Virus record (IMG/VR): IMGVR_UViG_3300030390_001258 | Origin: an uncultured virus (IMG/VR IMGVR_UViG_3300030390_001258) | Lineage: Duplodnaviria > Heunggongvirae > Uroviricota > Caudoviricetes | Direction: 5' to 3' (one strand) | Length of the DNA stretch: 64,000 bases | Shown: positions 17,137 through 28,000 of the stretch, piece after piece | Numbering within the stretch: the stretch's first letter is position 1 | How the letters are laid out: each line of letters opens with the position of its first letter | Notes under the pieces: model-generated | Databases searched by the model: none | Told to the model about the DNA's origin: nothing | The model's input: the letters and a program-made list of their open reading frames with translations, nothing else | Made by a program: the position numbers and the translations under genes

Positions 17137-17314
17137 AATCTTCGTCCATTTCTACTTCGATGCTAACTACAAAACCAGTAGGAGACATACTTAATGATGT
17201 GTCCCAACTTTTAACTAAGCCTACTGCATCAAGATCTGTTATTTTTTCTTCAAATTTAAGTACAGTGATTAACCACTCGTAAACAGTATCTACCTCTACG
17301 CTGCTGGTTATCAT
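17126..17314 (-). CDS. Hypothetical protein
   Basis: 62 aa ORF coupled to both neighbours. Confidence 0.45.
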   Translation of the reverse strand: MITSSVEVDTVYEWLITVLKFEEKITDLDAVGLVKSWDTSLSMSPTGFVVSIEVEMDEDYEQ

Positions 17315-17577
17315 TCTTTTCCTACTATTTGGTGCTCACTTATTAGCAAACAATCTTGACCATCAATAGGCATTTGGATTGCTTCGCTGCGAGGATCTAT
17401 AACTGCAGTGTCTCCTACTTTTACAAAAAAGCATTGAGGTCCTACAGCCAATACTTTAAGCACATTGCTTTTAGCACGAGATCTAATTGTAGTCTTATCT
17501 AGTATTATCCCTGACTCAGTTTCTGTTGAAGTTGGATCGGGTAGAACTACCCAATTACTGTTTGGTGTAAATTTCAT
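17311..17577 (-). CDS. groES: GroES/Cpn10-like co-chaperonin
   Basis: MKFTPNSNWVVL...TESGIIL...VLAVGP...VKVGD...LLISEHQI is the GroES signature; ATG at 17577. Confidence 0.85.
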   Translation of the reverse strand: MKFTPNSNWVVLPDPTSTETESGIILDKTTIRSRAKSNVLKVLAVGPQCFFVKVGDTAVIDPRSEAIQMPIDGQDCLLISEHQIVGKE

Positions 17578-17598
17578 CGTATATATTTTTAGTTTCCA

Positions 17599-17630
17599 CA
17601 AATATATAAAAGTTTCTGCTACAATACAAA
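17599..17630 (-). promoter_or_regulatory. Bacteroidota sigma-A promoter for the late operon (TTTG-N20-TATATTTG)
   Basis: Both the -33 TTTG and the -7 TAnnTTTG elements are present at consensus spacing. Confidence 0.75.
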
Positions 17631-17635
17631 GGTTT

Positions 17636-17910
17636 TTTAAAAAGGATCCAAAAAGACAGAGTTATCCCCCTTGGATTTTGGATTTCAAGTGTGATTTCAG
17701 CTGTTAGCAGTGCTCCCATTGGGGACCCAAGGATAATAATACTGGTGTTAATTCACCGCACTTACCTGTGTGCAATTTATCCTAACTAAAGCCTATACGT
17801 TACTCTTTCGAAGCTGTTGGAGAAAACTCTATTCCTTATTTAGGAACTACAATCCAACGTCTGACCCCTTTTTTGGCTACCCAGGGGTGATACTTATAAA
17901 GTGCTTCTGT
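17636..17910 (-). ncRNA. Candidate ~270-nt structured non-coding RNA
   Basis: TATATTTG box at 17912-17919, at least six nested stems, and a terminal hairpin followed by a U-run; no ORF >=60 aa on this strand. Confidence 0.55.
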
Positions 17911-17930
17911 GCAAATATAATCAATTAATA

Positions 17931-18080
17931 TTAACTTCCGCAGTTTTCACAATTTTCTTGATCTTCTATAGAACAAGCTGGTTGATCCTTCTCCGTTAAA
18001 TCTTTCATGTAGTCTTCGAAAGCATTATTATCTCTCTTTATACATTTACATTCTTCATTTTTTCCACACTTACATGCCAT
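17931..18080 (-). CDS. 49-aa Cys-rich, metallothionein-like peptide
   Basis: Hand translation MACKCGKNEECKCIKRDNNAFEDYMKDLTEKDQPACSIEDQENCENCGS; A-rich leader. Confidence 0.65.
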   Translation of the reverse strand: MACKCGKNEECKCIKRDNNAFEDYMKDLTEKDQPACSIEDQENCENCGS

Positions 18081-18098: not shown

Positions 18099-18218
18099 TT
18101 AAAAAAGACCCCGTTGATAGCGAGGTCTTAGTGTTTTTCCGTACCTGTTCGAATGTAGTGCAATGGTGAAACACAGTGTGAAGACACCTGCCCAGCCAAC
18201 CGTTACTATAAAACTCAT
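18099..18218 (-). CDS. Possible 39-aa single-TM peptide (or sRNA) with its own promoter and terminator
   Basis: MSFIVTVGWAGVFTLCFTIALHSNRYGKTLRPRYQRGLF; TATCTTTG box at 18244-18251; hairpin AGACCTCG/CGGGGTCT plus T-run at 18101-18128. Confidence 0.35.
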   Translation of the reverse strand: MSFIVTVGWAGVFTLCFTIALHSNRYGKTLRPRYQRGLF

Positions 18219-18406
18219 AGGATAGCGAAATTCCTTGTCCCTACAAAGATAAATATCCTGGTAAGACTAAAAAATTTTTGGGGGGGAAATTTTAAAAATT
18301 TGTTTTAGGTGTGAGTGCAACAACCAACTCAAACGACGACCCCCATTGTTCTCTGGCGATGAGGTACCCCCCTCGAGTATTAACGAAGTTAAATATTAAA
18401 TTTCCT

Positions 18407-20919: not shown

Positions 20920-20998
20920 TGCGCAATAGAGCAGTCAGGTCAGCTCACCAAGAATATCATAACCTTGGATGTCGTAGGTTCGAATCCTACTTGCGCAA
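20920..20998 (+). tRNA. tRNA-Met(CAT)-like gene with an expanded anticodon loop and no encoded CCA
   Basis: Acceptor TGCGCAA/TTGCGCA, D arm GAGC/GCTC, anticodon stem CCAAG/CTTGG with loop AATATCATAAC, T arm GTAGG-TTCGAAT-CCTAC. Confidence 0.8.
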
Positions 20999-21059: not shown

Positions 21060-21647
21060 ATGGCTAATCAATTAAATTCAGGAACAAAAGATTCCTTAGA
21101 AAAAGGTCAAACGTTATTAGTTAACGCTAGACAAATTGCAAACGGTAAAATCCAATTAGCATTTGCAGAAGTTCTTAAGTCAGATAAAGTACAAAATGTA
21201 CTATCTATGCTCAACAAATCAGATGAACGATTTAGTTCAAAAGCTCGTATGTCTTGGCAATCCGCTGAGCCAACAGATGCTCAAGAATTACTTGGTATCA
21301 ACTTTGGTGCAGATGCTCCTTGGTATGACTCTGAGCGTGGTAAAATGCTTGACTTAGATGTTCTTAACCCTACTATGTATGACAAACGTTGTCGAATTGT
21401 TGTATCAGAAACCTTAAAAGGTACTGAGTGGCAATTAGAAAACTTAGAAAAGTCTGCTAAACGTAAAGGTAAAGACGGAGAATACATCACTCATGATGGT
21501 AACTATATATTTGCTAACACAGATGTAATACTTACTAATGAGTCAACTGATGATCTCCATGTATATCTACAACCTGATTCAGCTAACTTAGCTATTACAT
21601 CAGGTAAATCTGCTGTGTTTACAGAAGAAAATATGGATATGCTTTAG
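21060..21647 (+). CDS. Hypothetical protein, possibly ssDNA/nucleic-acid binding
   Basis: 195 aa, beta-rich with an acidic tail; precedes polA; function inferred only. Confidence 0.5.
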   Translation: MANQLNSGTKDSLEKGQTLLVNARQIANGKIQLAFAEVLKSDKVQNVLSMLNKSDERFSSKARMSWQSAEPTDAQELLGINFGADAPWYDSERGKMLDLDVLNPTMYDKRCRIVVSETLKGTEWQLENLEKSAKRKGKDGEYITHDGNYIFANTDVILTNESTDDLHVYLQPDSANLAITSGKSAVFTEENMDML

Positions 21648-26246: not shown

Positions 26247-27165
26247 AGAAAGAGGATTTCACAGCATAGCAGACTCAGTAAATACTTCACTTAGTGAAAT
26301 AAAGAAAGGTATGCTTGGCCAGCGTGTAGTTTACCCCACTAAGTGGACAAGATTAAACAGAAACCTATTAGGTGGTCTGCAACCTGGCAAAATGTATGTC
26401 ATAGCAGGTAGACCTGGTGTAGGTAAAAGCGCATTCAGTAATCAAATGATCTTCGATCTATTAGATCACAACTCAAAGAAAAACTTAATGGTATTGTACT
26501 GGTCTTTCGAGATGCCTGGTCATCAGCAGATATTACGTGCTGGTGCTAAGGATGTCAAGAAAGAGGTAATGGATTTACTATCTGTACAAACTAAGTTAAG
26601 ACAAGACGAGTATGATCTATATAAAGAGAAAGTCACAGCTTATACTGAATATCCTATTTATTTCAATAACGTACCTAAAGACATAACATTTATCAAACGT
26701 ACTAATGCTGAGATAGCAGAGCAGTACCCTGATACTTTAGTTGTAAATGTTTACGACCACTCTAGGTTAATATTGAGTAATGCTGATACAGAATTGCAAA
26801 AACTAAACGAAATATCTAAAGGTTGTATGTGGATGCAAGCTAAGTTTGGTGTTATCAATATACTGTTATCACAACTAAATAGGAATATAGAACAAGAACA
26901 CCGTGCCCGTAATCAGTACCAACCAATGCTAACAGATTTGTTTGGTGGTGACAGTATAGGCCAGGATGCTCATGTTGTTATGATGCTACAGAGACCCTTC
27001 GATCTCTATGGTATTACAGATTTGTACTGCGATGAAGAGCCAGAAGGTTTGCTAGCAGTGCACATAGAGAAGAACAGGGACGGCATGTTAGGTATGATAC
27101 CATACGAGGCTGAACTTAGTACATTTACCATAAACGAAAGAAAAAATGGTAACAAAAGTAAATAG
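26194..27165 (+). CDS. dnaB: DnaB-like (SF4) replicative helicase
   Basis: AGRPGVGKS, SFEM, LSQLNR, DSIGQDAHVV, KNRDG. Confidence 0.92.
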   Translation: MRMTHETKPNHASQDLFKERGFHSIADSVNTSLSEIKKGMLGQRVVYPTKWTRLNRNLLGGLQPGKMYVIAGRPGVGKSAFSNQMIFDLLDHNSKKNLMVLYWSFEMPGHQQILRAGAKDVKKEVMDLLSVQTKLRQDEYDLYKEKVTAYTEYPIYFNNVPKDITFIKRTNAEIAEQYPDTLVVNVYDHSRLILSNADTELQKLNEISKGCMWMQAKFGVINILLSQLNRNIEQEHRARNQYQPMLTDLFGGDSIGQDAHVVMMLQRPFDLYGITDLYCDEEPEGLLAVHIEKNRDGMLGMIPYEAELSTFTINERKNGNKSK

Positions 27166-28000
27166 ACGAGCCCTTGATATTAAGACTAGCGGCAGATCTA
27201 CAGACTTTATTACTCCTTCTTTTGGACATGGATGTTTGTACGATTGTAGTTACTGTTACATGAAACGTAACAAACCTGAAGGATTAACAATAGCTAAGAA
27301 TGTAGGAGATATACTCACAGTAGTAAATAACCACGCATTCTTTACACTTGTTAATAAACCCAATCAAACACACGCAGAGTATACTACGTATGACATCAGT
27401 TGTAACGAAGACTTTGCATTGCACCTTAGACATCACGACTGGGAGAACATCTTTGATTTCTTCAAAGATCACCCTGTTGCTATGGGGTCGTTCGCTACTA
27501 AGTACGTGAACCCTAAGCTGATTGAGTATGACCCAGAAGGTAAAATACGCATACGTTTCAGTTTGATGCCTCAACACATGTCTACGTTACATGAACCGCA
27601 CACATCTAAGATAATTGATAGAATTAAAGCTATCGATGCATTTATAGATGCAGGGTATGACGTTCATGTTAATTTCAGTCCAGTCATTGTGACGGAGACA
27701 TGGTTAGAGGATTACAAGCAGTTGTTTCAAATGTTAGACGACTATGTAGATTACAAAGAGCAAGTTCTTGCAGAGGTTATATTCCTAACCCACAACGAGA
27801 ACAAGCACAAAGCTAATCTTATAGATAAACCGAATGCAGAAGCACAACTGTGGGCACCAGATATACAGGAGGATAAAATCTCACAGTATGGAGGGAGAAA
27901 CATTAGATACGAAAGACACCGTAAACGAGAATACATTAACCAATTTATAAACCTTCATGGTCAGATTATACCATGGAATAAAATCAGATACATATTTTGA
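27146..28000 (+). CDS. splB: Spore photoproduct lyase-like radical SAM enzyme
   Basis: GCLYDCSYCY (CxxxCxxC); YDISCNED aligns by eye to the SplB SCTSD region; also FATK, RIRFSL and NFSPVI. Confidence 0.8.
   Translation: MVTKVNRRALDIKTSGRSTDFITPSFGHGCLYDCSYCYMKRNKPEGLTIAKNVGDILTVVNNHAFFTLVNKPNQTHAEYTTYDISCNEDFALHLRHHDWENIFDFFKDHPVAMGSFATKYVNPKLIEYDPEGKIRIRFSLMPQHMSTLHEPHTSKIIDRIKAIDAFIDAGYDVHVNFSPVIVTETWLEDYKQLFQMLDDYVDYKEQVLAEVIFLTHNENKHKANLIDKPNAEAQLWAPDIQEDKISQYGGRNIRYERHRKREYINQFINLHGQIIPWNKIRYIF

What the first reader, a model, noticed from the sequence alone, without database searches (positions are those of the whole stretch)
17636..17919. Stand-alone ~270-nt structured ncRNA at the head of the late/packaging operon
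Seen on the minus strand: a TATATTTG host-type promoter box (17912-17919), then stems ACCCCT/AGGGGT, GTTGGA/TCCAAC enclosing TTCCT/AGGAA, and GTTAG/CTAAC enclosing AGGATAA/TTATCCT (with inner GCAC/GTGC and GGTG/CACC) plus a CCCA/TGGG-type hairpin. It ends in ATCCAAGGG..TTTTTGGAT followed by CCTTTTT. The next gene (groES) has its own promoter, so this looks like a discrete transcript. It shows no tRNA, tmRNA or RNase P hallmarks that I can recognise. Inference: a novel phage ncRNA, for example a 6S-like RNAP decoy, an anti-defence sponge or a packaging-associated RNA.
Basis: partly seen in the sequence, partly recalled or inferred. Interest (0 to 1): 0.78.

Follow-up and report, generated by a model that had tools for sequence, protein, structure and literature searches.

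The report
Folded RNA of crAss-like phages
This gene-free stretch is a real, intricately folded RNA of about 240 bases shared by aquatic crAss-like phages and by mobile DNA islands in their kind of bacterial host; it fits no catalogued RNA family and probably works as a stand-alone RNA that binds a host factor, but its job is untested.

Summary
Real. The minus-strand element at 17892-17655 of a marine crAss-like phage is a conserved structured RNA: in 73 relatives 96.3% of cells pair and 22 of 43 pairs change on both sides, although the single sequence folds no better than shuffles (z -0.23). All 37 terminase-related loci with at least 3.1 kb upstream carry it. A shared core links a second phage type, shorter and longer forms, and copies in five Bacteroidota genomes, inside integrase/RadC islands, three with no same-strand gene behind them. 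No Rfam match; not found in 12 cultured or gut crAss-like records. Best reading (0.35): a stand-alone RNA whose invariant core binds a host factor; rivals are a replication primer, a ribozyme and an antitermination leader. The scan noted the second type before on other DNA (e1-6226822). A neighbouring 140-base RNA is antisense to 23S rRNA.

The parts
17912..17919 (-). Bacteroidota-type -7 promoter box TAnnTTTG of the RNA (consensus recalled)
   Evidence: present within 25-110 nt upstream in 119 of 140 homologs against 39 of 483 control windows
17655..17905 (-). Structured RNA; conserved part 17892-17655, start near 17905 inferred from the promoter, optional small leader hairpin 17902-17892
   Evidence: single copy in the window, 253.7 bits; next best 14 bits
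17864..17888 (-). P1 hairpin (ACCCC/GGGGT); loop variable, longer forms add an inner GNRA hairpin
   Evidence: helix 1: 3 of 5 pairs change on both sides
17816..17862 (-). Core: invariant AGA, helix P2 (17858-53/17821-16), invariant UU, variable P3 hairpin (17846-32; expands to about 85-100 nt in long forms) and conserved 6-nt bulge (17827-22)
   Evidence: P2 100% paired in 140 rows against 91% shuffled; A-U/G-U/G-C series 92/3/55 and one G-U kept at either of two neighbouring positions in 145 of 150 rows
17687..17805 (-). Long irregular rod with a conserved UAUA/GAAAU internal loop (17797-94 opposite 17698-94), capped by a three-way junction carrying P6, P7, P8 and P9; the cap differs between types and is nearly absent in the shortest forms
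   Evidence: (helices 4-10); the outer rod pairs GAGT/ACTT were read by eye, with one column pair supported
17655..17672 (-). 3' tail: A, G-run (three invariant G), five bases, invariant U, then R-U-R-U-Y; its partner is not established
   Evidence: also in all 5 cellular copies
17599..17606 (-). Second TAnnTTTG box, before groES
   Evidence: a box lies between RNA and next ORF in 64 of 128 homologs
17311..17577 (-). groES-like gene, first of the run regulator, HU/IHF-like, terminase (15073-13082), portal (13004-10704), major capsid (8376-6934)
   Evidence: groES-like gene follows the RNA in 66 of 135 homologs by a rough motif test
17949..18080 (-). 43-aa acidic peptide ending in CxxCGS, a neighbour in part of the family
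   Evidence: 18 of 117 homologs; no Pfam or PHROG hit
18101..18251 (-). Second small RNA: TATCTTTG box (18251-44), 5' segment antisense to 23S rRNA helices 69-71 (17 nt exact, 18239-18223), terminator hairpin with T-run (18129-18101)

Best explanation
A stand-alone, compactly folded RNA made by host RNA polymerase from a host-type promoter. Its invariant unpaired bases (AGA, the P2 bulge, the UAUA/GAAAU loop, the G-run tail) pack into one tertiary core, while P3 and the junction cap are exchangeable arms. The core binds a factor of the Bacteroidota host as a decoy or scaffold, most plausibly a defence protein or part of the gene-expression machinery, to the benefit of the phage or island that carries it. 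Its 3' end is made by processing or factor-dependent termination, not by an intrinsic terminator. Shown: fold, promoter, strand, spread, independence from the downstream gene. Inferred: trans action, tertiary core, host partner. Not identified: the partner.
For: Covariation. Many G-U pairs on the promoter strand, which would be mismatches on the other strand. More conserved than groES, the regulator and terL in 5 of 5 pairwise comparisons (238 of 238 nt against 83-94% for those genes in the closest). Downstream gene differs freely: groES, amidase, membrane and tail-like ORFs read by eye, type I restriction subunit, HNH nuclease. No same-strand ORF follows closely in G144, G246, G447 and L503. 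No element-encoded gene is shared by all contexts seen, which points to a host partner. Invariant positions sit outside helices.
Against: No discrete transcript or high level shown: contigs of 3 of 4 RNA runs cover it and bridge to neighbours, and the fourth has no contig on it. In 56 of 128 homologs an ORF starts within 40 nt with no promoter between, as for a leader. No binding partner identified; no similarity to a known decoy. The invariant G-run is not explained by covariation.
Confidence: 0.35

Rival explanations
1. Cis-acting replication primer, working like ColE1 RNA II (recalled): the folded transcript stays hybridised to its template through the 3' G-run, is cut and primes DNA synthesis.
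For: Promoter without terminator; invariant G-run near the 3' end with no covarying RNA partner, able to pair with the P2 3' strand only by opening P2; single copy; lies where cumulative GC skew turns, 16-20 kb; found on mobile elements only; phage has a family A polymerase and a 5'-3' exonuclease.
Against: The skew turn coincides with the change in gene direction, so it does not show an origin; the phage has its own DnaB-like helicase; some copies sit mid-operon (L413, L496, L524); integrated islands need no origin.
Confidence: 0.2
2. A ribozyme: a new self-processing class that makes its own 3' end, or a circularly permuted relative of the RNase P catalytic helix P4.
For: Size, multi-junction fold and invariant non-helical core; no terminator; P2 and its flanks resemble P4 in permuted order (by eye 12 of 18 bases between L501 and the 3' conserved region of a fetched Bacteroidota RNase P RNA, 10 of 18 for the window; an invariant U at the place of the bulged U).
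Against: Positions that are universal A in RNase P (recalled) are A in only 33% and 9% here; bulge of 6 rather than 1; no P2, P15 or specificity-domain motifs seen; Rfam silent; the comparison was chosen after looking and has no formal control; no joints within the element in near-identical contigs.
Confidence: 0.17
3. Cis-acting leader of the late operon, working like HK022 put or the lambda late leader (recalled): the nascent RNA binds RNA polymerase to read through a long operon, or stabilises and aids translation of the mRNA.
For: In the window it heads about 17 kb of same-strand genes; no terminator; ORF within 40 nt and no second promoter in 56 of 128; contigs run into groES.
Against: Copies with no same-strand gene behind them; second promoter bypasses it in 64 of 128; only 1 of 150 tails holds GGAGG, so the G-run is not a Shine-Dalgarno signal.
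Confidence: 0.17
4. Packaging RNA like phi29 pRNA, bridging portal and terminase.
For: Always a few kb upstream of terL in this clade (37 of 37); beside a different terminase-like gene in L432 (read by eye).
Against: No covarying loop-loop pairing found; copies in islands with no head genes seen nearby; not found in 12 crAss-like records with homologous terminase or portal.
Confidence: 0.05

Closest known systems
Large ornate orphan RNAs of bacteria and phages (GOLLD, ROOL, OLE; PMC12286853, search listing and start of abstract only; raiA motif, recalled)
   Same: Large for a bacterial ncRNA, many junctions, strong covariation, phage or mobile context, job unknown
   Different: No Rfam match; smaller (about 190-330 nt); own architecture; host range seen is Bacteroidota
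Bacterial RNase P RNA, helix P4 region (RF00010; sequences fetched)
   Same: An 8-bp helix with two U-A pairs, a bulge led by U and G-C pairs, flanked by similar short sequences
   Different: Order permuted, bulge of 6, universal adenines missing, no other RNase P domains
ColE1 RNA II primer (recalled)
   Same: Promoter, no terminator, folded RNA with a G-run, on a mobile element
   Different: No sequence or fold likeness tested; origin not shown; G-run at the 3' end
HK022 put RNA and lambda late leader (recalled)
   Same: Structured RNA right behind the promoter of a long phage operon
   Different: Three times larger than put; occurs without a downstream operon
Candidate viral structured RNAs of PMC10690425
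   Same: Same source collection type (IMG/VR) and method class; 14 candidates are said to lie upstream of a large terminase (passage seen)
   Different: Could not be compared: the sequence-bearing archives were not searchable, so a fragment of this RNA may be among them

Membership tests
Any Rfam 15 family | Match at gathering score, or at least a low E-value | tested here: not met
   window; nothing over the element at E up to 10; 17 homolog loci; tRNAs only
RNase P RNA | P4 helix with single bulged U between the 5' and 3' conserved regions | tested here: inconclusive
   Similar helix and flanks in permuted order, bulge of 6; by eye
RNase P RNA | Universal adenines of the 3' conserved region (recalled) | tested here: not met
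   A in 33% and 9% at two of the equivalent positions
RNase P RNA | P2 pseudoknot closing the catalytic domain | tested here: not met
   Tail pairings with bulge, P3 loop, rod loop and AGA segment no better than shuffles
RNase P RNA | Pre-tRNA cleavage | not testable with these tools
   needs an assay
6S RNA | Single rod closed by 5'-3' pairing with a central bubble | tested here: not met
   Three domains in series, no 5'-3' closing stem
phi29-type pRNA | Two complementary loops that covary | tested here: not met
   none in the helix scan; P8 loop is absent in type II
phi29-type pRNA | Bound to proheads | not testable with these tools
   no cultured carrier found
Group I intron | P3/P7 pseudoknot and position inside a gene | tested here: not met
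   AGA-bulge pairing 0.63 against 0.68 shuffled; element is intergenic
HEARO / omega RNA | Adjacent IscB or HNH gene | tested here: not met
   none beside the window copy; a NUMOD4-HNH gene follows 1 of 5 cellular copies
put-type antiterminator | Lies in the leader of a same-strand operon | tested here: inconclusive
   true in the window; not in G144, G246, G447, L503
ColE1-type primer RNA | Origin at the 3' end with persistent RNA-DNA hybrid | tested here: inconclusive
   skew turn confounded by gene direction; hybrid not testable
rRNA-antisense or rRNA-mimic RNA (main RNA) | Consistent match to 16S or 23S above shuffles | tested here: not met
   mean z 0.08 (16S) and 0.23 (23S) over 28 comparisons each, one above 3 in each, at unrelated places; likewise

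The most novel reading that the evidence does not exclude
A new class of large ribozyme carried by crAss-like phages and Bacteroidota islands, possibly a naturally permuted descendant of the RNase P catalytic core, which processes its own transcript or host RNAs.
Probability: 0.15. Interest if true: 0.92.

Novelty: new variant of a known kind. Interest (0 to 1): 0.68.

Why it matters
Large, covarying RNAs with an invariant non-helical core are rare and are the usual source of new ribozymes and RNA machines. This one is kept by every close relative examined and crosses from lytic aquatic crAss-like phages into chromosomal islands, so it does something selfish elements of Bacteroidota need regardless of lifestyle. 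The cellular copies make it testable without culturing the phage, and natural short forms (about 190 nt) define a minimal core for structure work. The neighbouring anti-23S RNA suggests these phages use more than one RNA on the host.

Tried and rejected
Single-sequence folding gave no signal. blastn of three family members against the annotated phage collection and one against plasmids found no homolog. The type I pattern in one-genome-per-species contigs gave 37 matches, 0 of 37 confirmed by the type I profile; that pattern could not see the cellular forms found later. Model R1 found nothing in 5 cultured or gut records (no positive control); model R2 nothing in 12, with a positive control ringing and one more partial virus record silent. 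The P8 hairpin pattern rang in 58 of 301 genomes but 0 of the 30 loci checked held the RNA; those read were mostly coding or unrelated sequence. Six long-range pairings for the tail or AGA segment and a seventh with the P3 loop were no better than shuffles. rRNA mimicry, suggested by short look-alike motifs, did not survive shuffling. The 115-aa island gene has only unnamed Bacteroidota look-alikes and no BLAST similarity to window ORF 21060-21647. Lack of contig cover in run X2 and depth differences between genes were not used. No whole genome is held for the window, so the rest of the phage was not searched. A model search outside Bacteroidota was not done.

Full report
Setting. The window is part of a crAss-like phage: major capsid (Pfam Crass_capsid), portal and large terminase, with the closest annotated terminases at about 42% identity in gut Crassvirales. 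Structural genes run leftward from about 17.6 kb, replication genes rightward from about 18.3 kb. The finding lies on the minus strand at the head of the leftward block. The RNA runs that hold the stretch are labelled marine.

The observation. The promoter box, seven of the eight named stems and the second promoter are there. The single sequence folds no better than chance (z -0.23) and its minimum-energy fold is largely not the conserved one. Rfam has no match at gathering score or at E up to 10. The evidence comes from relatives. On 73 representatives chosen from 88 (long forms and four close copies left out), the hand-drawn 43-pair structure has 96.3% of cells paired, 22 pairs with changes on both sides, and beats 500 of 500 shuffles and all slid controls; relatedness inflates such counts, but several columns show three or four pair types. 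Of 80 terminase-related loci, all 37 with at least 3.1 kb upstream carry the RNA, as do 5 of the 43 shorter ones. It is more conserved than groES, the regulator and terL in 5 of 5 pairwise comparisons, 238 of 238 bases in the closest, where groES is 83% identical.

The family is wider. Model R1 run on 64 of the loci held (58 from a wider terminase search, 6 annotated phages) gave 33 strong hits and 7 at 53-59 bits in phages with 65-70% terminase identity. These define a second type. A pattern for it hit 70 viral and 120 metagenome stretches, some by chance; 97 of the 120 passed a stricter test. In all 150 distinct core sets were collected. What all share is P1, invariant AGA, helix P2 with UU and a 6-base bulge, a rod with a UAUA/GAAAU loop, and a tail with a G-run. 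After dropping 10 rows whose tail could not be anchored, P2 pairs in 100% of 140 rows against 91% shuffled. It keeps one G-U pair that moves between two neighbouring positions (74 and 71 of 150 rows), a sign of a shape under selection. P3 and the junction cap vary from nearly nothing to about 100 bases. No pairing of the tail was supported: its G-run could pair with the P2 3' strand only by opening P2, so it is either part of a tertiary core, a switch, or a partner of something outside the RNA.

Transcription unit. A strict TAnnTTTG box lies upstream in 119 of 140 homologs against 39 of 483 control windows; a terminator-like hairpin follows in 3 of 138; a second box lies before the next ORF in 64 of 128, and in 56 of 128 an ORF starts within 40 bases without one (rows are related). 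Contigs of 3 of 4 laid RNA runs from four studies cover the element; one spans 17412-17882 into groES, another 17592-18050 into the upstream ORF. They show presence in RNA libraries, not ends, strand or level, and DNA carry-over is not excluded.

Beyond phages. Model R2 (5' core, 48 sequences) found nothing in 12 cultured or gut crAss-like records, with a positive control ringing. In samples of 151 Bacteroidota genomes each it found 1, 3, 1, 1 and 1, five distinct genomes. These copies have the full core and tail. Four lie within 6.5 kb of a tyrosine integrase and the fifth among RadC, DUF3871, AAA_24 and type I restriction genes; two are on contigs of 524 and 265 kb, so they are islands rather than stray phage contigs. 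In three no same-strand gene follows closely, as in phage-like contig L503. This is the main ground for reading the RNA as stand-alone and against a gene-specific leader or a packaging RNA. The searches score only 22 candidates a genome, so the true frequency may be higher.

Mechanism. I favour a folded RNA whose invariant core binds a host factor as decoy or scaffold (0.35), because the downstream gene is free to change, no element-encoded gene is shared by all contexts seen, and conservation concentrates on unpaired bases. A ColE1-like primer (0.2) would explain promoter without terminator, the orphan G-run and the mobile contexts, but the skew turn is confounded by gene direction. A ribozyme (0.17) fits size and core; P2 resembles RNase P P4 in permuted order, yet universal residues fail, so it is not filed as RNase P. 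A put-like leader (0.17) fits the window but not the island copies. Packaging RNA is unlikely (0.05). rRNA mimicry or antisense action by the main RNA was tested and rejected.

The neighbour. blastn of the region hit only 23S rRNA, on the antisense strand. A separate 140-base RNA at 18243-18101 has a promoter box, a terminator and a 5' end complementary to helices 69-71. It is present in 15 viral contigs, far fewer than the main RNA, so the two are not an obligate pair. Earlier scan notes report such RNAs in other phages; I did not check those notes' own sequences.

What is known. Eight literature searches gave no description of this RNA; I saw listings and abstract starts. For PMC10690425 I saw passages, the supplement list and part 1 of one table; its alignment archives could not be searched, so a fragment may be among its candidates. 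For 10.64898/2026.09.22.753630 I saw passages for six terms, none on this RNA; its supplements are closed. Subscription papers are not covered. The scan noted the second type before in another genome (e1-6226822) and judged a similar-placed stretch a plain leader in a third (e1-6114699; family membership untested). Names of ColE1 RNA II, put, pRNA, 6S, raiA and the RNase P universal residues are recalled.

Verdict. Novelty: a new family within the known kind of large orphan structured RNAs. Interest 0.68; 0.92 if it proves catalytic (probability 0.15).

Noticed in passing
window 18251-18101 (-): Second small RNA with its own promoter box and terminator; its first 40 nt are antisense to 23S rRNA helices 69-71 (17 nt exact; alignment score 45 against a shuffle maximum of 34 for Salmonella and 27 for a Bacteroidota 23S; duplex -54.3 kcal/mol). 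15 viral contigs hold promoter plus core; 8 variants seen. Earlier scan notes describe anti-23S RNAs in other phages. One paper search found no description.
   Followed up: partly
window 18080-17949 (-): 43-aa acidic peptide ending in CxxCGS, upstream of the RNA in 18 of 117 homologs of both types; it recalls the redox-active C-terminal tail of ribonucleotide reductases (from memory, untested).
   Followed up: partly
window 20920-20998 (+): tRNA-like element (Rfam 51.6 bits) with an 11-nt anticodon loop; ARAGORN does not call it.
   Followed up: no
G246:C18, G543:C44, G447:C25 (L612, L616, L617): A 115-125-aa gene of no known family lies divergent from the RNA in 3 of 5 islands, followed by an AAA_24 ATPase (2 of 5), RadC-like gene (3 of 5) and DUF3871 (1 of 5).
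   Followed up: partly
L613 9116-9661 (G278): NUMOD4-HNH endonuclease gene directly behind the RNA in one cellular copy.
   Followed up: no
L024, L084, L221 and others: Long forms (310-335 nt, 11 of 88 representatives) replace P3 by a branched domain; L494 and L571 lack most of the junction cap.
   Followed up: partly
L016 (behind the RNA): A PAS-like membrane gene and a response-regulator-like gene follow the RNA in one phage (read by eye).
   Followed up: no
window 27146-28000 (+): Spore photoproduct lyase family gene between helicase and AAA_24 genes.
   Followed up: no
L102 against window: Second RNA and peptide gene 99-100% identical while main RNA and groES are 91% and 70%: a recombination break just upstream of the main RNA.
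   Followed up: no
G148:C13 (L627): Tandem array with a 447-nt period, 16 matches of the search pattern, in what reads as a coding repeat; unrelated to this RNA.
   Followed up: no
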